A stretch of DNA of 64,000 nt from positions 11,469-75,468 of the forward strand of contig CANQFJ010000001.1 of the NCBI GenBank assembly GCA_947598485.1, in the 5' to 3' direction. The first letter of the stretch is position 1. Each line of letters begins with the position of its first letter. This document shows positions 25,701 to 64,000 of the stretch, in pieces. A program made the position numbers and the translations under genes. The stretch is from an uncultured Bacilli bacterium (GTDB taxonomy: Bacteria > Bacillota_I > Bacilli_A > RF39 > UBA660). Below the pieces are notes generated by a model. The model was not told where the DNA came from. It made no database searches and saw only the letters and a list, made by a program, of their open reading frames with translations.

Positions 25701-25777
25701 TGGTGACCCGTACGGGATTTGAACCCATGAATCCATGCGTGAAAGGCATGTGTGTTAAACCGCTTCACCAACGGGCC
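25701..25777 (-). tRNA. tRNA-Glu (anticodon UUC), CCA encoded
   Basis: The reverse complement is GGCCCGTTGGTGAAGCGGTTTAACACACATGCCTTTCACGCATGGATTCATGGGTTCAAATCCCGTACGGGTCACCA. The anticodon stem is CATGC/GCATG with loop CTTTCAC. Confidence 0.93.
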
Positions 25778-25781
25778 ATAA

Positions 25782-25858
<77 letters not shown>

Positions 25859-39002: not shown

Positions 39003-39063
39003 TTTTTCCTCTTTAATGGTTGTTTATTATATATTAAAGGAAATTTTATTGCAACTATATTAT

Positions 39064-40772: not shown

Positions 40773-40789
40773 TATTTATCCTTTCTTAA

Positions 40790-51044: not shown

Positions 51045-51657
51045 TGTTGCTCCTTTCAATAATCTTTTGGACCGGTTTATATGTTTTCCTATAGATATCC
51101 AATATACCATACATTTCAATTTTTTCAAGATGACTTTTCGTAGGATAACCCTTATGTTTAGCAAATTCATACTGAGGATATATTTTATCATACTCTTCCA
51201 TAATATGGTCTCTGGTAACTTTAGCAATGACCGAAGCCGCGGCAATTGTAAGGCTTTTGGCATCACCTTTAATGATAGCTAAATGATTAGGCGTGTGAAT
51301 ATCCATGGCGTCAGTTAAAACAAAATCTGGTTTAACGTCAAGTTTACTAATTGCTTCACACATTGCTTTACGGCTTGCTTCAAGAATGTTTATTCGATCT
51401 ATTTCATCATTATCAATGACACTAACACCGACACTGATAGCATCCCTCATAATAATCGGATAGAACTCTTCTCTTTTCTTTTCACTTAACTTCTTAGAAT
51501 CGGTAAGGCCAGGAAGATTATAGCCTTTGGGTAAAATAACGGCCGCGGCCACTACAGGGCCACATAAAGGACCACGGCCAGCTTCATCAGTGCCCGCGAT
51601 ATATTCGTAACCTAAGTCATGATATTTTGTTTCATACTCTAATAAATCTACTTGCAT
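51025..51657 (-). CDS. rnhB: Ribonuclease HII
   Basis: GTDEAGRGPLCGPVVAAAV and DSKKLSEKKRE motifs. 210 aa. Confidence 0.92.
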   Translation of the reverse strand: MQVDLLEYETKYHDLGYEYIAGTDEAGRGPLCGPVVAAAVILPKGYNLPGLTDSKKLSEKKREEFYPIIMRDAISVGVSVIDNDEIDRINILEASRKAMCEAISKLDVKPDFVLTDAMDIHTPNHLAIIKGDAKSLTIAAASVIAKVTRDHIMEEYDKIYPQYEFAKHKGYPTKSHLEKIEMYGILDIYRKTYKPVQKIIERSNNEVSQK

Positions 51658-52571: not shown

Positions 52572-52862
52572 TCAACTTGATGACATTATATCACATTTAT
52601 GTTGTTTTATAAAGTCTAATGCCTCCAAATATTTATCTTCATATTTAAAAATAATCTTTATGTTTTTACTTTTATCTATTACTATATCTTCAATAAGTTC
52701 ATCAACAATCCTTTTATTTAATTCCTTTAATTCTTTTTTATCTGAAAATTTTCTTAACCATTCTTTATTTTCATCTGACTCAAAAGAGATACTTTCTAAT
52801 TTCTTCTGCAATTCACTTTTGTTATTTTTTAATTTCTTAATTTTATTGCTCGTGTTTCTAAA
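52572..52862 (-). pseudogene. C-terminal remnant of a large serine recombinase (coiled coil + DUF4368-like end)
   Basis: A 96-codon open frame, ..NKIKKLKNNKSELQKKLESISFESDENKEWLRKFSDKKELKELNKRIVDELIEDIVIDKSKNIKIIFKY.., with no ATG start, no resolvase catalytic domain and no RBS. Confidence 0.45.
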
Positions 52863-53092
52863 TTATTTTCAAATATTTCAGAATGTTCTATATGTCTGTC
52901 ATACTCATTAAGTTCCTTAATATCTTGTAATTCGGATTTATCAAATACTTTATATATTTCTCTACTTACTTCTACCTCCTGTAAATGTCCTTTACCATCT
53001 TTAAAACTAACAATATAAATATTTTTTTCTTCAATATAATTTAATGTATAAGGATTATCCTTTTATTTTCTTCTTTTTGGGCGTTCTGCCAT
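52829..53092 (-). pseudogene. Disrupted small mobile-element-type gene (in-frame stop at codon 10, truncated 3' end)
   Basis: GGAGGAAAGAAAG-ATG, then MAERPKRRK*KDNPYTLNYIEEKNIYIVSFKDGKGHLQEVEVSREIYKVFDKSELQDIKELNEYDRHIEHSEIF... It runs out of frame into the recombinase remnant. Confidence 0.4.
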
Positions 53093-53186
53093 CTTTCTTT
53101 CCTCCTATCAATTTCAAATTTTTTTTAATTCAAAATTGATAAAAGGTGGGCTTCTGCACTTACATAATTTTCCAGTTAATAGGTAC

Positions 53187-53232
53187 AAAAAAAGCCGGTT
53201 ATTCCCCTCAACAAATGAGAGAAACAACCGGC
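53187..53232 (-). terminator. Strong Rho-independent terminator of an orphan transcription unit
   Basis: On the minus strand: GCCGGUU-G-UUUCUCUC-AUUUGUU-GAGGGGAA-U-AACCGGC (7 + 8 bp) followed by U7. Confidence 0.7.
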
Positions 53233-53630
53233 ACTAAAAAAGGCACAAAGACGCAACAATATATCTTTAAGTATTATTTCATCGTATAAAATGTCATTAA
53301 ATATTATATAATCCTTAATACACATAAAAGGCATACGACCTCCTACAAAGTCAATGCCTTAAATTAAGAACTATAAGTATAAAAGTATATCTTTTATTAC
53401 TTATGTGAATATACAACATACTACTAATAAATTAGAATATACTGCATACTCCTTATCTAATCTTTATTATTTATTTTTTTTACAACTTACTACTCCTCTT
53501 TTCACATAATACATAGCCTTATGGCATTGCTACTATGAACATTATAAGACAATATTTTTGCAAAATTTGTCGAACTTTGTAGGCAATGATAAAGTTTTGT
53601 ATTTTTTTATATAGATAACCCCAAATAATC

Positions 53631-53658
53631 AAAAAAAAGACGAACTTTATTGTTCATC
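53631..53658 (-). terminator. Rho-independent terminator of the acc-fab-...-ACP operon
   Basis: On the minus strand: GAUGAAC-AAUAAA-GUUCGUC (7 bp, one G:U) spanning the ACP stop codon, followed by U8. Confidence 0.65.
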
Positions 53659-53871
53659 TGTTTTTGATTTTACTATTTTATAAATATCTTCATAAGAATT
53701 TATTTCAGCCATTTCCTCTGGCGAAAAAGATATTCCATATTTTTTTTCTATATTTACTAAAATATCCAAATGATTAAATGAGTCCCATACATCAGTGTTT
53801 TGTCTATTAGAATCATCAGATATTTCAACTTTGAGAATGTTCTTCATTATCTCTTTTATTTCATTCTCCAT
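53647..53871 (-). CDS. Acyl/peptidyl carrier protein (74 aa)
   Basis: Four-helix carrier-protein pattern with the phosphopantetheine Ser in VWDSFNHLDILVNIE. It overlaps the FkbH-like gene by 11 nt. Confidence 0.8.
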   Translation of the reverse strand: MENEIKEIMKNILKVEISDDSNRQNTDVWDSFNHLDILVNIEKKYGISFSPEEMAEINSYEDIYKIVKSKTDEQ

Positions 53872-55426
53872 TAAATACTACCTCCATATTATCATTCAAA
53901 TCATATTTCTTTATATTAAAATTGTATTTCTTGTTAGTATCACTTTCTTCATATTTATTAAATCCAAATTTATCATAGAAGTCTGCAACTTGCGAGTTTT
54001 TATTAGTCTTAATATATTCACTATTTATTGTATTTATATTCTTACTATATAGATCATTTAAAATAACTTTTAAAAACTCATTTTCTATTGTTCTACCCAA
54101 AACTCTACAACTTAATAAATATTCATCAATATAATAACAATTATTATCATTTTTTATAATACATACACCACATATACCTAAATCCCCAAATCTATCGCTT
54201 ACTCTAACACAATATACAAAATCTTTGTTTGTGATGTTATTTAATAATTCTTCTTTTGTGTATCTTTTTGTAGTTAAATTAAATTGATTACTTTTATTGA
54301 TTAACTGAACTATTCTATCAATATTTAAGTCATTCATATAATTTATCTCTAACTTCATATCTAGTTCTTTTAAGTATGTATCATAGTCAGAAATAGACAA
54401 TTTCAATTTTTCTGCTTCTTGCATATTCTTATACATTTTATTTTTTTCCAAGTCTTCATTTGATAATTCATATATAGAAAAACAATCTTTGAAACTTTCT
54501 ACTAATGTACTTGGTATTTTATATTTTTCTTCTGGTAATAAAATAGCAACAATATCATCTAATGATTTTTTTACTAATTCAATTTCAAAATTATTATCAT
54601 CAATAAACACAACAGAGTCCATTCCTATATTGAGTTGATTTACTGTTTCCATAATAGAATTAACTTTATTGTCCCAACCACTTTTAATAATAGTAAAATC
54701 ATCTTTTGTTAAGTATAAATCTTTTCTCTTATCAAATAATTCATCTATATCTTCTGGATTGTTTTTAGTTGCTGCACATATTATTATTCCATTATCCTTT
54801 AATTGTTTTATAATTTTCTGAACTTCACCATAAATATTATTAGGATATGAACCATTGAATCCTATACCCTCTATTCCATCTTCTCCTAAAACTCCATTCC
54901 AAATAGTATTATCAAAATCAACAATTAAACATTTTTTTCTTGTTTCATTTATAAGTTTGTACTGCTTATCAAACCAATTTGCAAATTCTATTTTTAATTT
55001 TGGAGATATTATAGCATTATAATTATAATAAAATCTTTCATCAAACACAGGTGAATATTCAACAAAAAAATTCTTTATATCAATTACATATACATTATTT
55101 TTAAAATTGTATATGTACTCATTAAACTTGCTAATTTCCTTTTCAATTTCATTATCAGATAGTATAAAAGAACTATTAAAATAATTATATAAAGTTAAAA
55201 CATATATTTTTTTATCTTTAATATTTTTAGTTATAAAATCAAAATTGAATTTTGCTTTTTTTATACAATTAAGTATTTCATTTTTACTATTTGAATAATC
55301 TATAAAATAACAGAAATAGTATTCATCATATATATCATCTACTGAAACATCACTATATCCACTAAAATTATAATCTTCATTGAATAAATACTCTATTGCA
55401 GTATTTCTAAATATATATTTTTTCAT
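53861..55426 (-). CDS. FkbH-like HAD-IIIC phosphatase/acyltransferase
   Basis: CLIVDFDNTIWNGVLGEDGIEGI (DxDxT plus the FkbH-type WxGVxGEDG), ICAATKNN, and a C-terminal GNAT-like region (RFGDLGICGV .. LSCRVLGR). Confidence 0.8.
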   Translation of the reverse strand: MKKYIFRNTAIEYLFNEDYNFSGYSDVSVDDIYDEYYFCYFIDYSNSKNEILNCIKKAKFNFDFITKNIKDKKIYVLTLYNYFNSSFILSDNEIEKEISKFNEYIYNFKNNVYVIDIKNFFVEYSPVFDERFYYNYNAIISPKLKIEFANWFDKQYKLINETRKKCLIVDFDNTIWNGVLGEDGIEGIGFNGSYPNNIYGEVQKIIKQLKDNGIIICAATKNNPEDIDELFDKRKDLYLTKDDFTIIKSGWDNKVNSIMETVNQLNIGMDSVVFIDDNNFEIELVKKSLDDIVAILLPEEKYKIPSTLVESFKDCFSIYELSNEDLEKNKMYKNMQEAEKLKLSISDYDTYLKELDMKLEINYMNDLNIDRIVQLINKSNQFNLTTKRYTKEELLNNITNKDFVYCVRVSDRFGDLGICGVCIIKNDNNCYYIDEYLLSCRVLGRTIENEFLKVILNDLYSKNINTINSEYIKTNKNSQVADFYDKFGFNKYEESDTNKKYNFNIKKYDLNDNMEVVFNGE

Positions 55427-55440
55427 TACATTTGCTCCTT

Positions 55441-56865
55441 TTATTTTACTCCCATAAATGAATTATAGAAATCCGATTTTTTTCCAAGTTCGTTTTTTAC
55501 CTTTTCATATTTATACTTTTCAATTAAAGTTTTTTCATTACTAAATAGATTTGTTCCTAAACCTAATCTATCTCCATCAATCTTACCACCTATTGCACTA
55601 ATTGTTGTAGGTAGCATATCTAATTGAGTAAATAATCTTTCTTTTGTTTTAATATTTTCTTTTTGATAGTCAGTATTTATAAAGACATTATATGTTGTTC
55701 TTTCATAATTATTTGGTACATTTTTAAAGAAATCTGTATCCATTGATATATGATCACCAACCATAATAATTACTGTATCTTCATAAAAATCTTGTGCTTT
55801 TATCCAATCAACAAAATCATTTATCATTGAATCACTGCAATATATTACATTTGAATATTGGTCATCAAACTTATTTTTACAATCTTTCTCTACATATCCA
55901 TTTTCAAAATGGGTATCTACTGTAAGTATAGTATAGTTAAAAGGCTTATCATTCTTTGATATTTCAAGTAATTCTTCTTTGGCATACTTAAATAAATCCT
56001 CATCACTATATCCCCACCAAACAATATCTTCTTTCGTCATTTTGCCTTTTGCTATTGCAGTATTTACATCTGAAATAGTGTAATGATGATTCCCATATAA
56101 AGTATTTCTTGCTCCATATTTTGAATTAGAGCCCATAATTATATAATTATCATAGCCATTATCATATAATATATCTCCAAGCGTTGTACCTGTATAAAAC
56201 TTATCAAAGTCATATTTATAAACTAAATCCAAATTTATTTTTAATGGCATTCCAGATGTTTGTGCTAACATTGAAGCAACTGTAAAATTACTACCATCTA
56301 AATATAAACTACCACCAGATTTATTAGTATTTGAAAAACTTATATTTTCATTTGCAAGAGTGGTCAATTTTGGAATTAAGTTTTCTTTCATAATTCCACC
56401 ATATTCTTTTGACGAATATGTATTTTCCATTGACTCTAAAATAATATAAACTACATTTTTCTTTTCATCAAATTCAATATTTACATCATCTGGATTAACA
56501 TAGTTTTTCTCTATAAAATCTGATTTAACAATGTTGCTATATAAATATTTATATATATCTAACTGATTAAATGCAAAACATAAAGAAATTACTGTTAGTG
56601 GAATATAAATCCATAACTTTTTCTTTTCGCTTTTTATAATTAAAATCATAATGATTGCAGCAATAATTATAGTTGGTATTATCGCAGTAAATATATAACT
56701 TTTATAATAATCAGAATTAACACCATTTAGAGGCACTAATAAATGGAATACTTTTTCTTCACCGGTAGTATGGCCATAAGTATTATTTAACCAAATAACC
56801 CCAATAAATAAGTGTACAATTATAAAATTTAGTATATATTCAAAAGTGGACTTTATACATCTCAT
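55441..56865 (-). CDS. LtaS-family sulfatase-like membrane transferase (second paralog in the window)
   Basis: N-terminal TM helices, VVYIILESMEN, IIMVGDHISMD, and MLPTTISAIGG. ATGA overlap with the GT gene. Confidence 0.72.
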   Translation of the reverse strand: MRCIKSTFEYILNFIIVHLFIGVIWLNNTYGHTTGEEKVFHLLVPLNGVNSDYYKSYIFTAIIPTIIIAAIIMILIIKSEKKKLWIYIPLTVISLCFAFNQLDIYKYLYSNIVKSDFIEKNYVNPDDVNIEFDEKKNVVYIILESMENTYSSKEYGGIMKENLIPKLTTLANENISFSNTNKSGGSLYLDGSNFTVASMLAQTSGMPLKINLDLVYKYDFDKFYTGTTLGDILYDNGYDNYIIMGSNSKYGARNTLYGNHHYTISDVNTAIAKGKMTKEDIVWWGYSDEDLFKYAKEELLEISKNDKPFNYTILTVDTHFENGYVEKDCKNKFDDQYSNVIYCSDSMINDFVDWIKAQDFYEDTVIIMVGDHISMDTDFFKNVPNNYERTTYNVFINTDYQKENIKTKERLFTQLDMLPTTISAIGGKIDGDRLGLGTNLFSNEKTLIEKYKYEKVKNELGKKSDFYNSFMGVK

Positions 56866-58004
56866 TTAATTAACCTCTCTATATTATCAAATGCTATTTT
56901 TGTTCCATCATAAGATTTGATAATATTTTTATACTTATCTATATTTTTCTTGTATTCTTTCTTACATAATTCTATTTTATCTTTTTTCAGATTGTCAAAG
57001 TTTTTAATATATAATCCTATTTTTTTCTTATTTACAATAATGGCTGTCATTCTTTGTTCTTCTTGTTGAGGAATACATATTTGGAATTTACCAAAATATA
57101 AACTTTCATAAACACTATTAAGTCCTCCGTGATTTATAAACAATTCAATATTAGGCAATAGTGATAATTGGTCTGTTGATTTTACAAATTCAACATTTTT
57201 TGAATTGTCAATTTTCAAGTTTCCTACACTCATTATTGATTTTTTATTTTTTAATAATTCACTATCAACTATTATATTTAGCAATTCATTGTTTTCAGTA
57301 AAAATAGATCCAAGTGAAATATAAGTGTCATATTTATCATATTTTGTCTTATTTGTAATTCTATCTTTAATTGTTGTACCTACAAAAACAAAATTTTTTG
57401 GAAAAGTTTTATAAAAAGGTTGTAATTCTTTTGGTGTAAATACTATGGTTATATCTCCCTTATTAACAAATAAATCCATAACATTCAATTTAACAACTTC
57501 ATTATCTTTTCTAAACCTTTTTTCTTCTTTATACAACTTTATGATAGGCTTTAAGTTTCTACACATTAACTTTATTGTTGAAAAGAACATATTTGAAAAA
57601 GTAAATGTAAAGGAATTATATGCCATAGTAGTACAAAAGCAAACTGATTTAATATTTAATTTTTTTGAAATGTTTTTTGCAAAAGAACACATTGAATCGT
57701 AAATAATTAAATCAGGCTTATTATTTCTTATATCATTTAAGTATTCTAAATAGCATTCTCTATTCAAACTCAATAATCCCTGATAAAGATTATAAAAGTT
57801 TGCAGTCAAATCACTTAAACTATATTTATCAAAATCAACTTTGTATTCTATAAAGTTTGCACCTGTTTGCTCTACAAATTGTTTATACTTTTTACTACAA
57901 TACCAATCTACTTGATAATTATTCTTTACTAATTTTGAAATTACAGGATATACAGAGTTTATATGTCCGAAAGCAGGAGTTGAGAAAAACACAATTCTTT
58001 TCAT
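56862..58004 (-). CDS. GT1 glycosyltransferase, MGT (macrolide/UDP-glucosyl) family
   Basis: N-terminal FFSTPAFGHINSVYPVISKLV and C-terminal nucleotide-sugar motif FINHGGLNSVYESLYFGKFQICIPQQEEQ. Confidence 0.8.
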   Translation of the reverse strand: MKRIVFFSTPAFGHINSVYPVISKLVKNNYQVDWYCSKKYKQFVEQTGANFIEYKVDFDKYSLSDLTANFYNLYQGLLSLNRECYLEYLNDIRNNKPDLIIYDSMCSFAKNISKKLNIKSVCFCTTMAYNSFTFTFSNMFFSTIKLMCRNLKPIIKLYKEEKRFRKDNEVVKLNVMDLFVNKGDITIVFTPKELQPFYKTFPKNFVFVGTTIKDRITNKTKYDKYDTYISLGSIFTENNELLNIIVDSELLKNKKSIMSVGNLKIDNSKNVEFVKSTDQLSLLPNIELFINHGGLNSVYESLYFGKFQICIPQQEEQRMTAIIVNKKKIGLYIKNFDNLKKDKIELCKKEYKKNIDKYKNIIKSYDGTKIAFDNIERLIK

Positions 58005-58006
58005 AC

Positions 58007-59152
58007 TTATTCAACTCCTTCCATATCTTCTATAATACTTTTTAATGTATCTTTTGGTATCTGATTTTTATAACTACAAATTGCTATATTCGTTTTATTT
58101 TTATATTCTGTAATTACTATTGAAAAAGGTGTTAAAGGTTGATGATTAGGTAGTGAAATGATATTTTCAATGTTAAATTTATAAGAACTATTGAAAGTTA
58201 ATCTTCCTAAATGAGATACTATTGCACCAACAAAGTATTTATTTTTATTTCTTAAATAATTAAAAAACTTTTTTATTACAAATCTTCTTATTTTCTCTGG
58301 ATAGTTATGATAGTTATATCCTTTTGCACTATACATATTTAATTCTTTTTTCTCTTTCAATGATAAAAGTAATTCTCCACCAATTTTATTTATATCATCA
58401 TCTTTATTAACGTCTATATAAATGGGCAAAATTAGATTTCCAATTCTTTTAGTAGTTCTATCATAATTTCTTAAATCAACAGGTATCATAAACTTGACAG
58501 TATCATTTTTAAAATGTTTTTGTAATATTTTTGATATTTTAGCAACAATATTTGGAATATAATTATCTATTGTTAGAACATTCCATTGTAGTTTATAACT
58601 GTTAATTTTGTTTATATTATTTAAAGAATATTTAGGTTTTAATTTTACTTTTTTATTATAGTAATTCTGATTTTTTATAAATTCTTTATCTGTTATATCA
58701 TTCTTTAATAAGTGTTCTTCCTTACCACATATTTTATTTACAAAGTTTTCAATAATTAAAATTGCACCCTTACCATCAATAACGCCGTGAAAGAACTTAA
58801 AAACTAAATATCTTCTTTTTTCATCTTTTATATTCAATAAATAAAGTTCTATACTATGCTTTCTAAAATTTGTTGTTTCATTAAAAAAGTCTTCATTAAG
58901 CATATAGGCTTCAGAATCAAAAGTTAATTCTTCTACATATATTCTATCCTTACTTACAAACCAATTATTATTGTTTTTAAATACATTGCTTCCGGTATTT
59001 TTTATTACTATCTCATTTATTGTATCTTCTATTTCTTTAATTGATATATTGCCTGTAAATTCTACTAAAAATTGAATTGTATAAGAATTAACTAACTCTT
59101 GTACATCACAAAACATCAATTCTCCATCAGAAATACCTCTTACCTTTTCCAT
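58007..59152 (-). CDS. Stand-alone condensation-domain-like / PapA-WS-type acyltransferase
   Basis: The start is trimmed from GTG 59164 to ATG 59152 (AAGGTGG 8 nt upstream). FKFFHGVIDGKG matches the HxxxDG catalytic motif. Size ~380 aa. Confidence 0.55.
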   Translation of the reverse strand: MEKVRGISDGELMFCDVQELVNSYTIQFLVEFTGNISIKEIEDTINEIVIKNTGSNVFKNNNNWFVSKDRIYVEELTFDSEAYMLNEDFFNETTNFRKHSIELYLLNIKDEKRRYLVFKFFHGVIDGKGAILIIENFVNKICGKEEHLLKNDITDKEFIKNQNYYNKKVKLKPKYSLNNINKINSYKLQWNVLTIDNYIPNIVAKISKILQKHFKNDTVKFMIPVDLRNYDRTTKRIGNLILPIYIDVNKDDDINKIGGELLLSLKEKKELNMYSAKGYNYHNYPEKIRRFVIKKFFNYLRNKNKYFVGAIVSHLGRLTFNSSYKFNIENIISLPNHQPLTPFSIVITEYKNKTNIAICSYKNQIPKDTLKSIIEDMEGVE

Positions 59153-59157
59153 TATTA

Positions 59158-60756
59158 CTACCACCTTTTTATTTTCAAAGTTGATGTTTTTGGGAACTCT
59201 TGCTCCTCTATTACATAATTACTTATATGTTTAAAAATAGGAAGATTATTATTTATATCATCAATCATTATTTTAATGGATTCTTCTATATTTTTTTTCT
59301 TTTTATACTCATCTTCCAAAACAATATGAGCGACTAAATATGATTCCTTTTTAACTTCTTTTGCTTTAACCAAGACTTCTTTAACAAAATCATATTCTAA
59401 TATTCTTTCTTCAATTTCTTCTGGATATATATTTTCTCCATTATTTGCTATTATTACATTTTTAATTCTACCTACTATATAAAGATAACCATCTTTATCA
59501 AGATATCCTAAATCCCCTGTATAAAACCAACCTTTTTTAAACACTTCCTCATTTTGTGATTTATTGTTGTATCCTATCATTACTTGTGGACCTTTTGCAA
59601 TTATCTCACCAATTCCATCTTTATCTTTATTTACTATTCTAATTTGTGTTTCTTTTAAAGGCTTTCCTACACTATTATTTCTTTTAGATTTTATTCCCAT
59701 TACGGTTAATATAGGTGATGTTTCTGTTAAACCATAGCCTTGATAAATATTAAATCCTAATCCCATCAAGAACTCAAATACATCATCTTCAAGTCTTGCA
59801 GCACCACAAGGAATTATGCGTAAATTACCTCCTAATTCATTATGAATTGACTTAAATACTTTCTTTTTGATATTTATCTTAAACTTCAATAAAAAATCCG
59901 TTAATTTAATCATATTGCTTACTAATTTTTCTTTCTTTTGATTTTTTATTTCCATTTTTATTCCCAATGTAATAAATTCTAATACTCTTGGAACACAATT
60001 TATTACTGTCGGCTTATACTTTTTTAAATCTTTCTTAATATTTTTAAATGATGAGCAAAAACATACAGATGATCCACTCATTAAAGGTGTCACTACTGAA
60101 CAAGTAAATTCATAGGTATGGTGTAGAGGCAATATAGAAAAAAACTTGTCATTAGTATCTAAATCAAATCTAAAATTCAAATTATAAGCGTCACGAATTA
60201 TATTATATTGTGATAGTTTAACTATTTTGGCTTTTGCAGAAGTTCCAGATGTAAAAAGTAATATTGATAATTCACTATCACTTCTTTTAATTTCATCAAC
60301 AGATTTGTCTTTAAAATATATTTTTTTTCCATCTTTAATTATTTTCTTAAAATCGTATGAATCCATATTAAGATACTTTATCTTCCTAAAATCTTTATTT
60401 ACATCATTTATTTTTTCTTCCATATCAGAAGAATAGAATAATAAATCTACATTAGATTGTTTTATTACTCTTTCAATTTCAGTGGGTGTTAGTTCTTTAT
60501 CAAGTGGAACAATTACTCCAACATAAGACACTACTGATAAATATGTTAGAATCCAATTATAAGAATTTTTACCTATAACAGCAATTCTCTTGTTTTCAAA
60601 TCCTTTTTTTAATAGATATGTTGCAAAATATTTTGTCTTATTATATAAATCTTCAAATGTATCATAATCATCAACATTACGATATATTGCAACATCATTA
60701 GGATACAATTCATAACATTTTTCTAAAAAGTCTTTAAATGTCTTTGCGTTGTTCAT
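59158..60756 (-). CDS. Acyl-AMP/acyl-CoA ligase (ANL adenylate-forming superfamily, fatty-acid type)
   Basis: LLFTSGTSAKAKIVKLS, QGYGLTETSP, WFYTGDLGYLDKDGYLYIVGRIKN, and a C-terminal TLKIKR. Confidence 0.88.
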   Translation of the reverse strand: MNNAKTFKDFLEKCYELYPNDVAIYRNVDDYDTFEDLYNKTKYFATYLLKKGFENKRIAVIGKNSYNWILTYLSVVSYVGVIVPLDKELTPTEIERVIKQSNVDLLFYSSDMEEKINDVNKDFRKIKYLNMDSYDFKKIIKDGKKIYFKDKSVDEIKRSDSELSILLFTSGTSAKAKIVKLSQYNIIRDAYNLNFRFDLDTNDKFFSILPLHHTYEFTCSVVTPLMSGSSVCFCSSFKNIKKDLKKYKPTVINCVPRVLEFITLGIKMEIKNQKKEKLVSNMIKLTDFLLKFKINIKKKVFKSIHNELGGNLRIIPCGAARLEDDVFEFLMGLGFNIYQGYGLTETSPILTVMGIKSKRNNSVGKPLKETQIRIVNKDKDGIGEIIAKGPQVMIGYNNKSQNEEVFKKGWFYTGDLGYLDKDGYLYIVGRIKNVIIANNGENIYPEEIEERILEYDFVKEVLVKAKEVKKESYLVAHIVLEDEYKKKKNIEESIKIMIDDINNNLPIFKHISNYVIEEQEFPKTSTLKIKRW

Positions 60757-60758
60757 TA

Positions 60759-61271
60759 CTATTCCTCGCTTTCTATTTCTTTTATTAACCCACTTATTAT
60801 ATCTTCTTTTTTGTATAATCTACCTGTTTCAATAGAAAGTGATGTTGCAATCTCTTGTATATCTTCTGACAAAGATTTTTGATTAACATTTATTCCTATA
60901 CCAATTATCAAGTAATCAAGTTTATTTAAAGAATATTGTGTTTCTATCAAAATACCACCTAATTTTTTACCATTATAATAAATATCATTAGGTTTCTTTA
61001 CATAAGTTTCAACATTACAGACTCTATTTATAACTTTTGAAACAATTTTTCCAATTCTATATGAATAATCTAATGGAATAGTTTTATTACTATCTTTAAT
61101 AAGAAAACTACAAATAATACTATTCTCGTCAGAATACCATTTTCTATTATTAGTTCCATATCCACTTGTTTGCTTATTTGCAATAATAACCACGTTATTT
61201 TTCACTTCATCTGCTATTTGCTTTGCATAAGTGTTTGTGCTATCTACACTTTCTATCTTAATTATTTCCAT
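60759..61271 (-). CDS. Biotin-protein ligase catalytic-domain protein (BirA-like, no HTH, short)
   Basis: The start is trimmed from GTG 61280 to ATG 61271 (a TAATG overlap with the fabF stop). Motifs are VDSTNTYAK, a degenerate GRGRxGRxW (QTSGYGTNNRKWYS), KKPNDIYYNGKKLGGILIE and GIGINVN. Confidence 0.7.
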   Translation of the reverse strand: MEIIKIESVDSTNTYAKQIADEVKNNVVIIANKQTSGYGTNNRKWYSDENSIICSFLIKDSNKTIPLDYSYRIGKIVSKVINRVCNVETYVKKPNDIYYNGKKLGGILIETQYSLNKLDYLIIGIGINVNQKSLSEDIQEIATSLSIETGRLYKKEDIISGLIKEIESEE

Positions 61272-62494
61272 TATTCCCACTTCTTAAATATCAAACATAC
61301 ATTATGCCCACCAAATCCAAATGAATTAGACATTGCATATTTCATAGTTGTGTTCTCCTTTGCTTTATTAGCGACAAAGTTTAAATCACACTCTGGATCA
61401 AACTCTTTATAATTTATCATTGGTGGCATTATACCTGTTTCAATGGCTTTAACTGTGACAAGTGCTTCTATTGCTCCACTTGCACTTAATAAATGTCCTG
61501 TCATTGATTTAGTTGATGAAACATAAGGTTTTGACTTAAATATTTCATTTATCGCTTTTGTTTCAGTTTTATCATTTAATGGTGTAGATGTTCCGTGAGC
61601 ATTTATATATGAAATATCACTTTCTTTAATATTTGCTTCTTCTAATGCTCTATTCATTGCTTTTGTACAAGTTAATCCCTCATAATCTGGCGAAACCATA
61701 TTATAAGCGTCACAATTACAACCATATCCTACTATTTCTGCATATATTTTAGCATTTCTTGCTTTTGCGTGTTCTAATTCTTCTAATATTAGTATTGCAG
61801 AGCCTTCTCCTATTACAAATCCACTTCTTCTTTTATCAAATGGGATTGAGGCTTCATCTTTATTATTTCCTCTATATAATGCTTTCATTGCAGAAAAACA
61901 AGCAACTGAAAATGGTGTTATTGAAGCATCACTTGCTCCTGCTACCATTACTTTTTCATAACCGTGTTTTATCTTTAAATAGGCTTCACCTATTGCGTTT
62001 GCTCCACCACTACAAGCAGCAGCAGTTGCCATATTTGAGCCTTTTGCACCTAAATCTATTGCAACTTTACCAGAAGCCATATTAGGAAGCATTGCCGGAA
62101 CTAACATAGGCGACATTCTTGAAGGACCTTTATCTTTTAAAGTTTCAAATCCTTCATTTACTTTTTCAACTCCACCCATACTATTTGAAATATAAACTCC
62201 AAAATAGTCTTTATCAAAATCTATATTATCTAATTTACTATCTTTATATGCTTGTGTAGAAGCAACCCTAGCAAGATTTATAAATTTAGAATCAAATAGT
62301 AAATCTCTCTTTGGTATTCCATTATAGTCAATATCTTTAACCTCTGCTGCATATTTAGAATCAAATTGTTCTGTATCAAAACTTGTTATTAAATCTATGC
62401 CATTTTTTCCGTTTATGATATTATTCCAGAATGTTTCTACATCATTTCCTAATGCAGATATAACACCCATTCCTGTAATAACAACTCTATTCAT
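61271..62494 (-). CDS. fabF: 3-oxoacyl-ACP synthase II
   Basis: Active-site Cys in ATAAACSGGANAIG, His residues in NAHGTSTP and GHLLSASG, and a C-terminal SFGFGGHN. Confidence 0.92.
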   Translation of the reverse strand: MNRVVITGMGVISALGNDVETFWNNIINGKNGIDLITSFDTEQFDSKYAAEVKDIDYNGIPKRDLLFDSKFINLARVASTQAYKDSKLDNIDFDKDYFGVYISNSMGGVEKVNEGFETLKDKGPSRMSPMLVPAMLPNMASGKVAIDLGAKGSNMATAAACSGGANAIGEAYLKIKHGYEKVMVAGASDASITPFSVACFSAMKALYRGNNKDEASIPFDKRRSGFVIGEGSAILILEELEHAKARNAKIYAEIVGYGCNCDAYNMVSPDYEGLTCTKAMNRALEEANIKESDISYINAHGTSTPLNDKTETKAINEIFKSKPYVSSTKSMTGHLLSASGAIEALVTVKAIETGIMPPMINYKEFDPECDLNFVANKAKENTTMKYAMSNSFGFGGHNVCLIFKKWE

Positions 62495-63395
62495 TATTTA
62501 TCGCCTCCAAATCTTGTAGTTTTTCTATATGAATTACTTTTAATTTCAACTTGTTGTATATAGCAATAGAACGAATAAAACTATCAATAGATTTTCCTAT
62601 TCCTATGACATAAAATTCATCTACTCCATCATTTATCATATTTAAAATACTTTGTTCAAATCTTACAGAATTATATAATTGTTTAACAAGTAATTCTTTT
62701 ATATTTTCATTTGATTTGTTTCCTACATAATTATAATAAATTGGCAAAGATGGTGTATTAAAATTATATTTATTTAAAACTTCTTTTAATTCATTACTTG
62801 CTTCTTTAAGTAGTCCAGAATGGAATGCACCAATTACATCAAGTTTAACAACTTTTTTTGCACCACTTTCTAAACACTTTTTAGAGCATTTTTCTAATTC
62901 ATCATTATTACCTGCAATTACAACTTGGTCTGGTGAATTATAATTTGCTATCCATACATTATCAAACTCACTAACTATTTTTTCAATTTCATTTGAGTTT
63001 AAAAACATAACTGCATACATTCCTGTATTCTTACCATTTAATGCTTCATACATTATATTTGACCTATTTTCTAAAATTGAAACTGTATCGTCTATACTAA
63101 TTGCATTTGAATAACAAAGTGCAGTATATTCTCCAAGTGATAGTCCTGCACATACATCTGCATATATTCCTTTATCATTTAATAATTTAGTTAAAATTGT
63201 GCTAATAACAAAATTACCAATTTGTGAATATCTTGTATCGTGAATTAAATCGCTTTCGTTCACAAATATATCTTTAAAATTGAAATTTATATCTAATTTA
63301 TCTATAAAGTTTTTGGCAAACTCATTTTTTTCATATAATTCTTTTGCCATCTCACTATATTCATTACCTTGACCTGTAAATACAAAAGCCCTCAT
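62487..63395 (-). CDS. fabD: Malonyl-CoA:ACP transacylase
   Basis: The start is set at ATG 63395 (AAGGAG 9 nt upstream, ATGA overlap with the accA stop). FVFTGQGNEY, GLSLGEYTAL, and GAFHSGLL. Confidence 0.9.
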   Translation of the reverse strand: MRAFVFTGQGNEYSEMAKELYEKNEFAKNFIDKLDINFNFKDIFVNESDLIHDTRYSQIGNFVISTILTKLLNDKGIYADVCAGLSLGEYTALCYSNAISIDDTVSILENRSNIMYEALNGKNTGMYAVMFLNSNEIEKIVSEFDNVWIANYNSPDQVVIAGNNDELEKCSKKCLESGAKKVVKLDVIGAFHSGLLKEASNELKEVLNKYNFNTPSLPIYYNYVGNKSNENIKELLVKQLYNSVRFEQSILNMINDGVDEFYVIGIGKSIDSFIRSIAIYNKLKLKVIHIEKLQDLEAINNE

Positions 63396-64000
63396 TTTAT
63401 CATTCTCCTTACTGCAATATCCCAATTTCTAATTCTTTCATATCTATTATCAATAAGTTCTTGTAAGTCTTTCTTTATTAAATCATCATATTTATCTAAT
63501 ATGAAGTCTTTAATGTTCTTAACATTAAAATCTAAATCTTCATTTTCATCAATAACTTCGTCTATAATTTTATCTTCATATAAATCTTGTGCCGTAAATC
63601 GCATACTTTTTAACAATTCATTACTTACTTTTTCTTCTTTGTGCATTATTTTTAGATATGCTTCAGGAGAAATAACTGTATATATTGAGTGTTTTAACAT
63701 ACCGATTGAATCACAAACTGACAATGCAAGTGCTCCACCACTAGATCCTTCTCCAACAACAATAGATATTATTATTGTTTTTAAATCTGAAAAAGTATAT
63801 AAACAATCTGCTATTGCTTTGGCTTGTCCATTTTCTTCTGAATAAATGCTTGGGTCTGCTCCTGCACTATCTATAATGTTGATTATTGGAATATTAAATT
63901 TTTCGGCAAGTTTTGATATTCGGAGTGCTTTTCTATATCCCTCTGGTCTTGTAAGTCCATAATTGGTATCTTCATTTTCTTTTAGTGTTCTTCCTTTATT
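63392..64000 (-). CDS. accA: Acetyl-CoA carboxylase carboxyltransferase alpha subunit, C-terminal part (5' end beyond the window)
   Basis: The frame is open to nt 64000. ..RPEGYRKALRISKLAEKFNIPIINIIDSAGADP.., VVGEGSSGGALAL and VISPEAY motifs. Ends with TGA. Confidence 0.85.
   Translation of the reverse strand, partial: NKGRTLKENEDTNYGLTRPEGYRKALRISKLAEKFNIPIINIIDSAGADPSIYSEENGQAKAIADCLYTFSDLKTIIISIVVGEGSSGGALALSVCDSIGMLKHSIYTVISPEAYLKIMHKEEKVSNELLKSMRFTAQDLYEDKIIDEVIDENEDLDFNVKNIKDFILDKYDDLIKKDLQELIDNRYERIRNWDIAVRRMIK

What the first reader, a model, noticed from the sequence alone, without database searches (positions are those of the whole stretch)
53647..64000. Ten-gene operon fusing a private ACC/FAS-II supply with acyl-AMP ligase, C-domain acyltransferase, GT1, LtaS-like transferase, FkbH-like enzyme and a dedicated carrier protein
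Seen in the sequence: accA (partial), fabD, fabF, a BirA-like ligase, an ANL acyl ligase, an HxxxDG condensation-like protein, an MGT-family glycosyltransferase, an LtaS-family membrane enzyme, an FkbH-like HAD-IIIC protein and a 74-aa carrier protein are co-oriented. The junctions are overlaps of 1-11 nt or gaps of 14 nt or less, and the operon ends in a strong terminator (53631..53658).

Established knowledge:
- FkbH-type enzymes load a glycerate-derived unit onto a dedicated ACP.
- Acyl-AMP ligases activate fatty acids.
- Stand-alone C/PapA-type enzymes transfer carrier-bound acyl groups.
- MGT GT1 enzymes glycosylate lipophilic acceptors.
- LtaS-family enzymes transfer phosphoglycerol outside the membrane.

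Inference: this is a carrier-protein-dependent pathway to an acylated glyceryl/glycerate glycolipid, or to a decoration of a lipoteichoic-acid-like polymer. It would be conceptually parallel to DltA/DltC but with different chemistry. The gene order is unlike the usual Firmicute fab cluster. The operon abuts a mobile-element scar, and the lines I counted in its distal genes are only ~20-28% GC.
Basis: partly seen in the sequence, partly recalled or inferred. Interest (0 to 1): 0.7.

Follow-up and report, generated by a model that had tools for sequence, protein, structure and literature searches.

The report
Mobile self-sufficient glycolipid-type biosynthesis island
The ten genes are real and intact, but they are the tail of an 18-gene operon on a horizontally transferred island in an uncultured gut bacterium; the operon carries its own malonyl-CoA supply and carrier proteins and most likely makes an acylated sugar-lipid whose structure is still unknown.

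Summary
All ten co-oriented minus-strand genes exist, their catalytic motifs are intact, and dN/dS is 0.04-0.24.

The window cuts the operon. An identical metagenome contig and sister contigs show 18 genes: Sfp-type PPTase, OleD-like SDR, lactonase-like MBL, F390-synthetase-related ligase (TIGR02304), KAS III, ACP1, AccB, AccC, AccD-AccA fusion, FabD, FabF-type KS, short BirA, ANL ligase, a Pfam-less C-fold acyltransferase, YjiC/MGT-type GT1, OpgB/LtaS-like transferase, FkbH and ACP2. No FabG, FabZ or FabI is encoded, so this is not a fatty-acid synthase.

The operon sits on a roughly 19.5-kb island beside rbgA. Island proteins are 95-97% identical between two hosts whose RbgA proteins are 36% identical.

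Across relatives, the conserved core is the SDR-MBL-F390rel-KAS III cassette plus GT1 and/or the C-like enzyme. ACC/FabD/BirA, ANL and LtaS-like/FkbH/ACP2 are optional modules.

Best reading, at class level: a dedicated thiotemplate pathway to an acylated, glycosylated lipid. FkbH/ACP2 would add a glycerate unit and the LtaS-like enzyme an extracellular phosphoglycerol.

The lipoteichoic-acid and Dlt readings have no support here. This is an orphan cluster family with no literature found in the searchable library.

The parts
63392..64000 (-). C-terminal (AccA) half of an AccD-AccA fusion carboxyltransferase. The full gene is 546 aa and runs beyond the window end.
   Evidence: PF03255, 221 bits. 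The full-length fusion is seen on the identical contig L001 at 5319-6959.
62487..63395 (-). FabD-like malonyl-CoA:ACP transacylase, 302 aa from the ATG start.
   Evidence: TIGR00128, 220 bits, below the equivalog cutoff of 261. PF00698 also hits. The gene call is on L001.
61271..62494 (-). FabF-type elongating ketosynthase.
   Evidence: TIGR03150, 523 bits, above the cutoff of 494. dN/dS is 0.04-0.055.
60759..61271 (-). Short biotin-protein ligase of 170 aa: catalytic domain only, with no C-terminal or HTH domain.
   Evidence: TIGR00121, 132 bits, covering model positions 1-166 of 235. The KPNDI lysine motif is visible in the sequence. The same short form (164-177 aa) is conserved in L005, L007, L008, L010-L012 and L017.
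59158..60756 (-). ANL-superfamily acyl ligase of the FadD/MenE type.
   Evidence: PF00501, 213 bits. The best NCBIfam hit is long-chain-fatty-acid-CoA ligase. The best PDB hits are oxalyl-CoA, MenE and FadD ligases, not NRPS A domains.
58007..59152 (-). Stand-alone condensation-fold acyltransferase ('C-like') of 381 aa, with motif FHGVIDG. It belongs to a family with no Pfam or NCBIfam model.
   Evidence: No family hit. The AlphaFold2 model has pLDDT 85.8. Foldseek top hits are the SrfA-C C domain (E 3e-17), WS/DGAT and PapA5. H122, D126 and G127 are invariant. The profile search finds 427 cluster representatives, many of them C-A-T fusions.
56862..58004 (-). GT1 glycosyltransferase of the MGT/YjiC type.
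   Evidence: TIGR01426, 170 bits, below the cutoff of 260. The best PDB hits are Bacillus YjiC-type UDP-glucosyltransferases, E 3e-30.
55441..56865 (-). Membrane-anchored OpgB/LtaS-like phosphotransferase of the alkaline-phosphatase/sulfatase fold.
   Evidence: Phosphoglycerol transferase I, 155 bits; LtaS, 39 bits; both below their cutoffs. In the alignment to Listeria LtaS 4uoo, the Glu, nucleophile Thr, His and Asp-His metal ligands are all conserved.
53861..55426 (-). FkbH-family HAD-IIIC enzyme of 521 aa: about 160 aa of N-terminal domain followed by the FkbH domain.
   Evidence: TIGR01686, 255 bits, above the cutoff of 147. The family invariants D170, D172, T174, K221, D276, D277, S439, C440 and R441 are all present.
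53647..53871 (-). ACP2, a dedicated 74-aa carrier protein with the serine in WDSFNHLD.
   Evidence: PF00550, 21.5 bits, above the cutoff of 20.8. Orthologous carriers lie next to FkbH or the C-like gene in L011, L012, L025 and L026.
53638..53659 (-). Weak intrinsic-terminator-like hairpin overlapping the ACP2 stop codon.
   Evidence: -9.3 kcal/mol, z = -3.0.
53194..53232 (-). Strong terminator-like hairpin about 400 nt downstream of ACP2. It lies inside a non-coding stretch that is conserved as part of the island.
   Evidence: 17-bp stem, -28.5 kcal/mol, z = -8. The stretch is 92% identical to L029.
52572..52811 (-). Remnant of a large serine recombinase C-terminus, marking the right end of the island. 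Host rbgA starts at 52529.
   Evidence: Weak DUF4368 hit, E 5e-4. Homology to the sister island ends at about 52571. In L029, a serine recombinase and KilA-N occupy the same place.

Best explanation
**What it is.** The ten genes are the 3' two-thirds of an 18-gene, roughly 17.7-kb operon. It sits on a horizontally mobile island of about 19.5 kb inserted directly upstream of rbgA in an uncultured low-GC Bacillota from animal guts. It is a dedicated, host-independent thiotemplate pathway to an acylated glycoside, that is, a glycolipid-type secondary lipid. It is neither a housekeeping FAS-II locus nor a lipoteichoic-acid locus.

**Shown here.**
- Gene content, intact catalytic motifs and purifying selection.
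- The extent of the operon.
- The modular architecture across relatives.
- The condensation-domain fold of the Pfam-less protein.
- Recent horizontal transfer.

**Inferred chemistry.**
1. The Sfp-type PPTase and the short BirA activate the cluster's own carrier proteins and its biotin carrier (BCCP). AccB, AccC and AccDA make malonyl-CoA, and FabD loads it on ACP1.
2. A carboxylic acid, probably a fatty acid taken from the environment, is activated by the ANL ligase and/or the F390-synthetase-related ligase. KAS III and the FabF-type KS condense it with malonyl-ACP1. No KR, DH or ER is encoded, so the chain stays a beta-keto (or fused or pyrone-type) intermediate. Only the single OleD-like SDR can reduce it to a beta-hydroxy acid. 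The lactonase-like MBL hydrolase releases or processes it, by analogy with PqsA/D/E and OleA/D.
3. The YjiC/MGT-type GT1 glycosylates the resulting hydroxyl.
4. FkbH turns a glycolytic C3 unit into glyceryl-S-ACP2. The C-fold enzyme forms an ester between a carrier-bound acyl group and a hydroxyl of that glyceryl unit or of the sugar.
5. The OpgB/LtaS-like enzyme adds a phosphoglycerol head group on the outer face of the membrane.

Steps 4 and 5 belong to a detachable module found only in some lineages.
For: **Operon extent and lack of reductive enzymes.** L001 is 100% identical to the window over 10,638 bp and extends it upstream. L013-L016 give the 5' end, with the PPTase and a divergent XRE-family regulator.

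**Dedicated rather than housekeeping.** ACP1, FabD and AccB score below the NCBIfam equivalog cutoffs.

**Neighbourhood matrix**.
- The SDR-MBL-F390rel-KAS III cassette accompanies the C-like family down to 25% identity (L024-L027).
- The minimal form is the cassette plus GT1 (L019, L020).
- The C-like gene is present wherever a carrier gene or domain is present, and it is absent from the carrier-less minimal form.

**FkbH recurrence.** FkbH with an ACP2-type carrier and a C-like gene recurs in three independent architectures: the window, L010-L012 and L026.

**The FkbH module is discrete and coupled to the C-like gene**.
- In L005 and L007, homology stops within 25 nt of the GT1 stop codon.
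- There the C-like gene is either the most diverged gene (61% identity, against 81-96% for its neighbours) or has lost residues 48-186, which include the HxxxDG motif.

**Individual enzymes.**
- C fold.
- FkbH invariants.
- LtaS catalytic residues.
- GT1 nearest to YjiC.
- SDR best hit is OleD, 210-215 bits.
- KAS III is as close to the chain-fusing, pyrone-forming MxnB and CorB as to any FabH.
- MBL is nearest to AHL lactonases.
- F390rel is nearest to PaaK.

**Selection and transfer.** dN/dS is 0.04-0.24. Island proteins are 95-97.5% identical between two hosts whose flanking RbgA proteins are 36% identical.

**Precedent.** A free-standing ligase + ACP + C-domain triad has been reconstituted in vitro from a gut Firmicute: the OaaA/OaaACP/OaaC pathway (PMC13310621).
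Against: - No product is known, and every chemical step is inferred from family membership.
- The island encodes no flippase or transporter, yet the LtaS-like enzyme should act outside the membrane.
- The window's C-like protein is closer to the C domain of the C-A-T fusions (257 bits) than to the stand-alone C-like paralogue next to FkbH-ACP2 in L011 (74 bits). Its pairing with glyceryl-ACP2 is therefore not secure.
- The roles of the two ligases (ANL and F390rel) and of the two carriers are not resolved.
- GT1, the LtaS-like enzyme, the SDR and KAS III all score below curated equivalog cutoffs.
- FkbH chemistry has been demonstrated only for distant actinomycete and myxobacterial homologues (my own knowledge). 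It has not been shown for the 520-aa form common in gut bacteria.
- The host genome is not available, so the 'self-sufficiency' rationale is untested.
Confidence: 0.45

Rival explanations
1. **Acyl-tetronate, pyrone or tetramate small molecule.** KS and KAS III make a beta-ketoacyl-ACP1. This is joined to FkbH-derived glyceryl-ACP2, or to an aminoacyl-T in the C-A-T relatives, and cyclised to a 3-acyl-tetronate (tetramate) or an alpha-pyrone. GT1 then modifies the product or masks it. The product would be a diffusible antibiotic or signal rather than a membrane glycolipid.
For: - FkbH + dedicated ACP + KAS III + an unreduced beta-keto chain is the ingredient list of tetronate pathways (my own knowledge of RK-682 and agglomerin; the tetronate cassette is described in PMC7489565, which was found but not read).
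- No KR, DH or ER is encoded.
- Relatives replace the FkbH context with, or add to it, a C-A-T module.
- KAS III is as close to the pyrone-forming MxnB and CorB as to FabH.
- The MBL is lactonase-like.
- MGT-type GTs often mask antibiotics (my own knowledge).
Against: - KAS III belongs to the four-gene cassette and is retained in many clusters without FkbH, so it is not a dedicated tetronate-forming enzyme.
- The E2-like acyltransferase and the eliminase of tetronate cassettes are absent.
- An extracellular LtaS/OpgB-like membrane enzyme fits a membrane-bound product better.
Confidence: 0.2
2. **Ole-like or mycolate-like head-to-head condensation.** The cassette fuses two fatty acyl chains (KAS III). 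It reduces the 2-alkyl-3-keto acid (OleD-like SDR) and activates it (F390rel). The 2-alkyl-3-hydroxy acid is then glycosylated and further acylated.
For: - The four functional classes parallel OleA/D/C/B. The best NCBIfam hit of the SDR is OleD, full length, at 210-215 bits, with the next family at 127 bits.
- KAS III is near the chain-fusing MxnB and CorB.
- In E. coli the cassette sits with PAP2, sterol-desaturase-family and acyl-CoA desaturase genes, which are long-chain lipid enzymes.
Against: - The SDR is far below the OleD cutoff of 580.
- KAS III is not in the OleA clade, as no OleA model was among its hits.
- F390rel is PaaK-like rather than OleC-like.
- The hydrolase has an MBL fold, not the alpha/beta-hydrolase fold of OleB.
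Confidence: 0.15
3. **The first reader's alternative.** The locus decorates a lipoteichoic-acid-like polymer through a carrier protein, in parallel to DltA/DltC.
For: An LtaS-family enzyme, a ligase and a small carrier protein lie in one operon. A second LtaS-like gene lies 2.4 kb away, at 49035-51266.
Against: - There is no MBOAT (DltB), DltD, polymerase, flippase or CDP-glycerol gene.
- The ANL is FadD/MenE-like.
- The LtaS-like enzyme is closer to OpgB (155 bits) than to LtaS (39 bits).
- The LtaS-like/FkbH/ACP2 block is dispensable in sister clusters, and the whole island is horizontally mobile.
Confidence: 0.07
4. **Housekeeping fatty-acid and lipid synthesis locus of the organism.**
For: It contains accBCDA, fabD, fabH-like, fabF, acp and birA. 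If the host lacks another set, these would be its only acc/fab genes; this was not tested.
Against: - No fabG, fabZ, fabI/K or plsX/Y/C is present.
- ACP1 and FabD score below equivalog cutoffs.
- Content varies between close relatives.
- The island is flanked by mobile-element debris and is 95-97% identical between hosts whose RbgA proteins are 36% identical.
Confidence: 0.03

Closest known systems
Free-standing ligase / ACP / condensation-domain pathways of gut Firmicutes (fatty-acid amide pathway OaaA-OaaACP-OaaC of Coprococcus eutactus; PMC13310621)
   Same: An ANL/A-type ligase, a small carrier protein and a stand-alone C-fold enzyme are encoded as separate proteins in a gut Bacillota. 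The ligase loads an exogenous fatty acid on the carrier, and the C enzyme transfers it to a small nucleophile.
   Different: - Here the triad is embedded in an 18-gene operon with ACC, FabD, KS, KAS III, GT1, FkbH and an LtaS-like enzyme.
- The C-like family has no sequence-detectable similarity to any solved C domain and no Pfam hit.
- The likely acceptor is a hydroxyl (sugar or glyceryl), not an amine.
FkbH / dedicated-ACP glyceryl-loading pairs of polyketide pathways (OzmB, FkbH/FkbJ; tetronate cassettes such as RkE/RkF with the FabH-like RkD)
   Same: The FkbH domain scores above the trusted cutoff, with the DxDxT and Ser-Cys-Arg invariants. A dedicated carrier follows directly, overlapping by 11 nt. 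A KAS III and an unreduced beta-keto chain are available.
   Different: - There are no FkbG, FkbI or FkbK genes, so no methoxymalonyl route.
- There are no tetronate-specific E2-like or eliminase genes.
- The protein carries an extra N-terminal domain of about 160 aa, typical of gut-bacterial homologues.
- The host is a low-GC Bacillota.
- The partner appears to be a C-fold enzyme.
Mycobacterial FadD / Pks / PapA acyl-sugar lipid pathways (sulfolipid-1, polyacyltrehalose)
   Same: An acyl ligase, a carrier-bound acyl chain and a stand-alone C-superfamily acyltransferase (PapA5 is among the Foldseek hits) together give an acylated sugar lipid.
   Different: Here there is a type II KS/KAS III instead of a type I Pks, a GT1 instead of a preformed trehalose acceptor, no MmpL transporter, and a different phylum.
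PqsA/PqsD/PqsE and OleA/OleD/OleC/OleB
   Same: The functional classes match: ligase + KAS III + MBL-fold hydrolase (Pqs), or thiolase-fold condensing enzyme + 3beta-HSD-type SDR + adenylating enzyme + hydrolase (Ole). The best family hit of the SDR is OleD.
   Different: - No component reaches the family cutoffs.
- F390rel is PaaK-like.
- The hydrolase is nearest to AHL lactonases, and PqsE is not among its PDB hits.
- The cassette, built around TIGR02304, has no published function in the searchable library.
OpgB (MdoB) phosphoglycerol transferase I and LtaS
   Same: An N-terminal membrane anchor is followed by a sulfatase-fold domain with the conserved Thr nucleophile and metal ligands. The best family hits are OpgB.
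   Different: The protein is 474 aa, against 703-763 aa for the OpgB models and 626 aa for the LtaS model. It scores far below the equivalog cutoffs. It is encoded inside a biosynthetic island rather than as a core envelope gene.

Membership tests
Housekeeping type II fatty-acid synthesis locus | A complete elongation cycle is encoded: FabG, FabZ/A and FabI/K/L/V. | tested here: not met
   None of the 18 genes belongs to these families.
Housekeeping type II fatty-acid synthesis locus | Core-genome behaviour: the same content and order across relatives, and vertical inheritance. | tested here: not met
   The ACC/FabD/BirA/ANL modules come and go. Island proteins are 95-97% identical against 36% for the flanking RbgA. 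Mobile-element genes lie at both ends.
Housekeeping type II fatty-acid synthesis locus | The components reach the curated equivalog scores. | tested here: inconclusive
   FabF passes (523 > 494). FabD (220 < 261), ACP1 (54 < 70), AccB (63 < 115) and KAS III (307 < 402) do not.
FkbH-type glyceryl-carrier loading system | FkbH domain above the trusted cutoff, with the HAD motif DxDxT and the conserved Cys. | tested here: met
   TIGR01686, 255 bits, above the cutoff of 147. D170, D172, T174, D276, D277, S439, C440 and R441 are invariant across 14 homologues.
FkbH-type glyceryl-carrier loading system | A dedicated carrier protein with a phosphopantetheine-attachment serine lies next to it. | tested here: met
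   ACP2 overlaps the FkbH stop codon by 11 nt. PF00550 is above its cutoff. The WDSF(N/L/M)HLD motif is conserved in L011 and L012. A PPTase is encoded in the operon.
FkbH-type glyceryl-carrier loading system | Converts 1,3-bisphosphoglycerate to glyceryl-S-carrier. | not testable with these tools
   Needs an in vitro assay with intact-protein mass spectrometry.
NRPS condensation / PapA / WS-DGAT superfamily | The two-lobed chloramphenicol-acetyltransferase-like fold. | tested here: met
   The AlphaFold2 model has pLDDT 85.8 and pTM 0.88. 291 PDB matches have E<=1e-3, and all of the top 50 are C-superfamily enzymes: C, Cy, E, CT, PapA5 and WS/DGAT.
NRPS condensation / PapA / WS-DGAT superfamily | Catalytic (H)HxxxDG motif. 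| tested here: met
   The motif is F-H122-G-V-I-D126-G127. H122 and D126 are invariant, and G127 is at least 90% conserved, in 20 family members down to 22% identity.
NRPS condensation / PapA / WS-DGAT superfamily | Recognised by the curated sequence model PF00668. | tested here: not met
   No Pfam or NCBIfam hit at E<=0.01. A profile of the family finds no solved C domain by sequence. Only distant family members touch PF00668.
LtaS / OpgB phosphoglycerol transferases | Sulfatase-fold domain with a Thr nucleophile and the Glu, His and Asp-His metal ligands. | tested here: met
   The alignment to Listeria LtaS 4uoo shows ILES, NFT, THF and GDH all conserved.
LtaS / OpgB phosphoglycerol transferases | Reaches the equivalog score of LtaS or OpgB. 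| tested here: not met
   OpgB 155 (cutoff 572), PG-oligosaccharide glycerophosphotransferase 147 (cutoff 574), LtaS 39 (cutoff 970).
LtaS / OpgB phosphoglycerol transferases | N-terminal transmembrane segments place the catalytic domain outside the cell. | tested here: inconclusive
   Three hydrophobic stretches (about residues 8-26, 56-77 and 84-102) are visible in the sequence. No topology predictor was run.
MGT/YjiC-type GT1 glycosyltransferases | Family model score and nucleotide-sugar motif. | tested here: inconclusive
   TIGR01426 gives 170 bits, below the cutoff of 260. The best PDB relatives are YjiC-type UGTs, E 3e-30. The N-terminal GH motif and the C-terminal HGG...EQ motif are present in the sequence.
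Tetronate glycerate-utilisation cassette | A FabH-like enzyme dedicated to FkbH/ACP, plus an E2-like acyltransferase and an eliminase. | tested here: not met
   KAS III travels with the SDR-MBL-F390rel cassette, also where FkbH is absent. No E2-like or alpha/beta-hydrolase gene is in the operon.
OleABCD olefin / beta-lactone pathway | OleA thiolase, OleD reductase, OleC beta-lactone synthetase and OleB hydrolase. | tested here: not met
   Only the SDR points to OleD, and it does so below the cutoff (210-215 against 580). KAS III hits FabH-type models. F390rel is TIGR02304/PaaK-like. The hydrolase has an MBL fold.
Dlt D-alanylation system | DltA-type ligase, DltC, the MBOAT DltB, and DltD. | tested here: not met
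   No MBOAT or DltD is in the operon. The ANL's best hits are FadD, MenE and oxalyl-CoA ligases. ACP2 hits DltC only at 18 bits against a cutoff of 68.

The most novel reading that the evidence does not exclude
The FkbH-ACP2-C-domain-GT1-LtaS-like part of the island builds a membrane lipid on a glycerate backbone instead of a glycerol-3-phosphate backbone. Glyceryl-S-ACP2 taken from glycolysis is O-acylated by the C-fold enzyme with island-made or scavenged acyl chains, then glycosylated, then capped outside the cell with phosphoglycerol. This would be a PlsX/PlsY/PlsC-independent, horizontally portable route to an anionic glycolipid. It would be carried by an island that brings its own PPTase, biotin ligase, ACC and FabD, so that it works even in fatty-acid-auxotrophic, reduced-genome gut Bacilli.
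Probability: 0.1. Interest if true: 0.85.

Novelty: new variant of a known kind. Interest (0 to 1): 0.55.

Why it matters
1. It defines an orphan family of biosynthetic clusters in uncultured gut and rumen Bacillota, and more distantly in other bacteria. The family is built round a four-gene cassette: OleD-like SDR, lactonase-like MBL, TIGR02304 ligase and KAS III. The cassette has no published function in the searchable library, yet it is also present in about 12% of complete E. coli genomes, including LF82, ABU 83972 and UPEC strains. Its chemistry is therefore directly testable in a tractable organism.

2. It reveals a deep-branching condensation-fold family of about 430 cluster representatives with no Pfam or NCBIfam model. 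The family occurs both free-standing and as C-A-T fusions.

3. It is an unusually self-contained mobile biosynthetic island, carrying PPTase, BirA, ACC, FabD, ACPs, KAS III and KS. The island has moved recently between distantly related hosts. This bears on how lipid-type metabolites spread in gut communities.

4. The combination of FkbH with a C-fold enzyme and an LtaS/OpgB-like ecto-enzyme suggests chemistry (a glycerate-containing phosphoglycolipid) not described for Bacillota.

It remains an in silico orphan cluster: the product and the phenotype are unknown.

Tried and rejected
- **Look-ups that failed.** An exact look-up of FabD using the TTG-start ORF found nothing because the start was wrong; FabF worked.
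- **Genome-contig scan.** The scan with the C-like alignment found one 3-kb contig, binned in a 'Muribaculaceae' MAG. At 23% GC it is almost certainly mis-binned. No host taxonomy came from it.
- **Host taxonomy.** The listing of cluster members gave no organism names. The host is known only as a chromosomal low-GC Bacillota-like genome with dxs, smc, polA, topA, priA, rnhB and rbgA. A relative lies in the NCBI MAG GCA_028709685.1, labelled 'Bacilli bacterium'.
- **Literature.** Searches for F390 synthetase, TIGR02304, 'CoF synthetase', and FkbH with glycolipid found no description of the cassette or the cluster. The chlorosphaerolactylate paper (PMC7923214) turned out not to involve FkbH. The ladderane paper concerns a different cluster.
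- **Is the ANL the split A domain of the C-A-T relatives?** Rejected: 22% identity, and the ANL is FadD-like. ACP2 shows no similarity to the T domain of P0016.
- **Is the hypothetical gene after the B. mycoides cassette a C-like gene?** Rejected.
- **'The island sits at different chromosomal sites.'** I first noted this and then corrected it. Both copies lie directly upstream of rbgA.
- **Promoter scans.** They are uninformative in this AT-rich DNA, with no more matches than in shuffled sequence.
- **Rfam.** No riboswitch or leader RNA was found at the operon.

Full report
**1. Observation**

The ORF list shows ten co-oriented minus-strand ORFs between 53647 and 64000.
- ACP2, 53647-53871.
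- FkbH, 53861-55426: TIGR01686, 255 bits against a cutoff of 147.
- A sulfatase-fold enzyme, 55441-56865: best hits are OpgB phosphoglycerol transferase I (155 bits) and, weakly, LtaS (39 bits).
- An MGT-type GT1, 56862-58004.
- An HxxxDG protein with no family hit, 58007-59152.
- A FadD/MenE-like ANL ligase, 59158-60756.
- A 170-aa BirA catalytic domain, 60759-61271.
- FabF, 61271-62494: 523 bits, above the equivalog cutoff.
- FabD, 62487-63395.
- The AccA part of a carboxyltransferase, 63392-64000.

GC is 25.0% against 29.6% for the rest of the window.

The hairpin after ACP2 exists but is weak: -9.3 kcal/mol, with 3 GC pairs. A far stronger hairpin (-28.5 kcal/mol) lies about 400 nt further on, at 53232-53194. 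No terminator-like site interrupts the ten genes.

**2. The operon is larger than the window**

An ENA metagenome contig (L001) is 100% identical to window 64000-53363 and continues 6.35 kb upstream. Contigs carrying the identical F390-related protein (L013-L016) give the 5' end.

The operon has 18 genes over about 17.7 kb:

| # | Gene | Note |
|---|---|---|
| 1 | Sfp-type PPTase | 172 aa, AusB-like |
| 2 | Extended SDR | 329 aa; best NCBIfam hit OleD (2-alkyl-3-oxoalkanoate reductase), 210-215 bits; next family 127 bits |
| 3 | MBL-fold hydrolase | nearest AHL lactonases |
| 4 | F390-synthetase-related adenylating enzyme | TIGR02304, 536 bits |
| 5 | KAS III | |
| 6 | ACP1 | |
| 7 | AccB | |
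| 8 | AccC | |
| 9 | AccD-AccA fusion | |
| 10 | FabD | |
| 11 | KS | |
| 12 | BirA | |
| 13 | ANL | |
| 14 | C-like | |
| 15 | GT1 | |
| 16 | LtaS-like | |
| 17 | FkbH | |
| 18 | ACP2 | |

A divergent XRE-type regulator lies upstream of the PPTase.

No FabG, FabZ, FabI/K or Pls gene is present. ACP1, FabD, AccB and KAS III fall below the NCBIfam equivalog cutoffs. The 'private FAS-II' is therefore a malonyl-ACP supply plus two condensing enzymes without a reductive cycle.

**3. The Pfam-less protein is a true condensation-fold enzyme of a rare, deep clade**

- The word-index search found only 13 homologues, all metagenomic.
- The exhaustive profile search found 427 cluster representatives. 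Many are proteins of 950-1000 aa in which this domain is N-terminal to an AMP-binding domain and a PP-binding domain, that is, C-A-T.
- The AlphaFold2 model (pLDDT 85.8) matches NRPS C, Cy, E and CT domains, WS/DGAT and PapA5.
- H122 and D126 are invariant, and G127 is at least 90% conserved, in members down to 22% identity.
- A profile of the family finds no solved C domain by sequence.

**4. Comparative anatomy**

I mapped the 18 reference proteins onto about 30 fetched loci.

*(a) The cassette follows the C-like family.* The SDR-MBL-F390rel-KAS III cassette accompanies the C-like family even at 25-27% identity.
- L024: cassette plus a C-A fusion.
- L025 and L027: cassette placed divergently from C-like plus a carrier.
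- L026: cassette, then FkbH, then C-like plus a carrier.

*(b) A minimal form exists.* An abundant minimal form is the cassette plus GT1 only (L019, L020). It lacks both a carrier protein and the C-like gene. Wherever the C-like gene occurs, a carrier gene or domain occurs too.

*(c) A spore-former variant.* L002-L004 and L022 have cassette-ACP-KS-GT2-GT1-C-like and none of ACC, FabD, BirA, ANL, FkbH or LtaS-like.

*(d) The supply module is optional.* The ACC/FabD/BirA block is present in the window lineage, L005, L007, L008, L010-L012 and L017.

*(e) The closest FkbH relatives outside the lineage sit in related clusters.* These homologues (45-46% identity) lie in ...AccDA-FabD-KS-BirA-ANL-[C-A-T]-VOC protein-FkbH-ACP2-like-second C-like. 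Examples are L010/L011, from the NCBI MAG 'Bacilli bacterium', and L012.

So FkbH + an ACP2-type carrier + a C-fold enzyme recur in three architectures, while the LtaS-like gene is confined to the window lineage.

**5. The last three genes are a detachable module functionally tied to the C-like gene**

In L005 and L007, nucleotide homology to the window stops within 25 nt of the GT1 stop codon. No remnant of LtaS-like, FkbH or ACP2 exists there.

In exactly those clusters the C-like gene behaves differently:
- In L007 it is by far the most diverged shared gene: 61% amino-acid identity and dN 0.25, against 81-96% identity and dN 0.02-0.10 for its neighbours.
- In L005 and L006 it has lost residues 48-186, which include the catalytic motif.

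**6. The genes are functional**

- dN/dS is 0.04-0.24 for all nine genes compared.
- The FkbH invariants (DxDxT, DD, Ser-Cys-Arg) are present.
- The LtaS-like enzyme keeps the Thr nucleophile and the metal ligands when aligned to Listeria LtaS.
- The BCCP lysine, the ACP serines, the KS Cys-His-His triad and the KAS III Cys-His-Asn triad are visible in the sequences.

**7. It is a mobile island**

- Downstream of ACP2, about 900 bp of non-coding DNA is 92% identical to the sister copy L029. Homology ends at about 52571, just before rbgA.
- In L029, a 7-kb block with KilA-N, SLFN_AlbA_2 and a split large serine recombinase lies between the island and its rbgA.
- The window keeps a 79-aa DUF4368-like fragment at that position.
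- Upstream, the window organism has KilA-N, RhuM and peptidase-C39-like genes. The sister copy has IS66 fragments after rplS.
- Island proteins AccC to FkbH are 95-97.5% identical between the two copies. PPTase to AccB are 57-89% identical, so the island is a mosaic.
- The flanking RbgA proteins are only 36% identical.

The island has therefore moved recently between distantly related hosts. This also offers a simple reason for carrying its own PPTase, BirA, ACC and FabD: independence from the host.

**8. Mechanism (inferred)**

Precedents are the following:
- PqsA/D/E: ligase, KAS III, MBL thioesterase.
- OleA/D.
- MxnB and CorB: they are the top and third PDB hits of KAS III, on a par with Aquifex FabH.
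- YjiC-type GT1s.
- FkbH/ACP glyceryl loading (my own knowledge).
- The reconstituted OaaA/OaaACP/OaaC pathway of a gut Firmicute (PMC13310621).
- OpgB/LtaS.

The most economical pathway has five stages:
1. Self-supplied malonyl-ACP1.
2. Activation of an acid by ANL and/or F390rel, followed by one or a few non-reducing condensations by KAS III and KS.
3. A single ketoreduction by the OleD-like SDR, with release or processing by the MBL hydrolase.
4. Glycosylation by GT1, and ester formation by the C-fold enzyme involving carrier-bound substrates, in this lineage probably glyceryl-S-ACP2 made by FkbH.
5. Extracellular phosphoglycerol transfer by the LtaS-like enzyme.

Weak points:
- No exporter or flippase is encoded.
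- Two ligases and two carriers have unresolved roles.
- The window's C-like protein is nearer to the C domain of the C-A-T fusions than to the FkbH-adjacent paralogue.

Rival readings are scored separately: a tetronate or pyrone small molecule, an Ole-like branched hydroxy acid, LTA decoration, and housekeeping FAS.

**9. Comparison and novelty**

All component families are known, and thiotemplated acyl-sugar lipid pathways are known. The combination is not described in the searchable library, and neither is the TIGR02304 cassette.

The cassette also occurs, with other lipid-modifying genes, in 674 of 5426 complete E. coli genomes. There it sits between narI and purU and includes strains LF82 and ABU 83972. 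It also occurs on a B. mycoides plasmid and in Fusobacterium vincentii.

I rate this a new variant of a known kind, and an orphan cluster of moderate interest. Its function can be tested through these tractable relatives.

Noticed in passing
window 53740-53747 (minus strand, inside ACP2); L029 about 11680-11690: An A8 homopolymer in ACP2 is A7 in the sister island L029. This shifts the frame and truncates ACP2 to 56 aa there. It could be an assembly error or a slippage-prone (phase-variable) tract.
   Followed up: partly
L033 4999-11880 (E. coli KE48); 674 of 5426 complete E. coli genomes: A distant copy of the KAS III-SDR-MBL-F390rel cassette lies between narI and purU in about 12% of complete E. 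coli genomes, including LF82, ABU 83972 and UPEC 26-1. It is followed by PAP2, sterol-desaturase-family and acyl-CoA desaturase genes. No function was found in the literature searched.
   Followed up: partly
L013 vs L017/L029 (island-wide): The island is a mosaic. PPTase to AccB are 57-89% identical between the two lineages and AccC to FkbH are 95-97.5% identical, which implies a recombination breakpoint near AccB/AccC. The flanking RbgA proteins are 36% identical.
   Followed up: yes
window 52997-53640: The non-coding stretch downstream of ACP2 is 92% identical to L029 and holds a very stable hairpin (53232-53194, -28.5 kcal/mol). No Rfam family matched it. Its role (terminator, attachment site or small RNA) is unknown.
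   Followed up: partly
L005 10001-10687; L006 2157-2843: In a sister lineage that lacks the FkbH module, the C-like gene carries an in-frame internal deletion of residues 48-186, which includes the HxxxDG motif.
   Followed up: yes
L028 1800-11050: A complete cassette-ACP-KS-GT2-GT1-C-like cluster on a 274-kb contig is broken into dozens of short ORFs. It is either a decayed copy or an error-rich long-read assembly.
   Followed up: no
window 49035-51266 (minus strand): A second sulfatase-fold LtaS-like gene (LtaS model, 97 bits) lies 2.4 kb from the island, next to rnhB. The listed 743-aa ORF overlaps rnhB, so the true start is probably further downstream.
   Followed up: no
window 9058-9237; 25704-25858: A 6S RNA (48.9 bits, just above the gathering score) and two tRNA genes.
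   Followed up: no
window 7142-9019; 38256-42863: A HerA-like helicase of the anti-phage-associated type, and a Tad/Flp-type pilus ATPase with neighbouring genes. These are chromosomal context unrelated to the island.
   Followed up: no
L021 3-2237: In one 90%-identical metagenome copy the BirA gene between KS and ANL is missing, so KS is followed directly by ANL. This is another sign of modular gain and loss.
   Followed up: no
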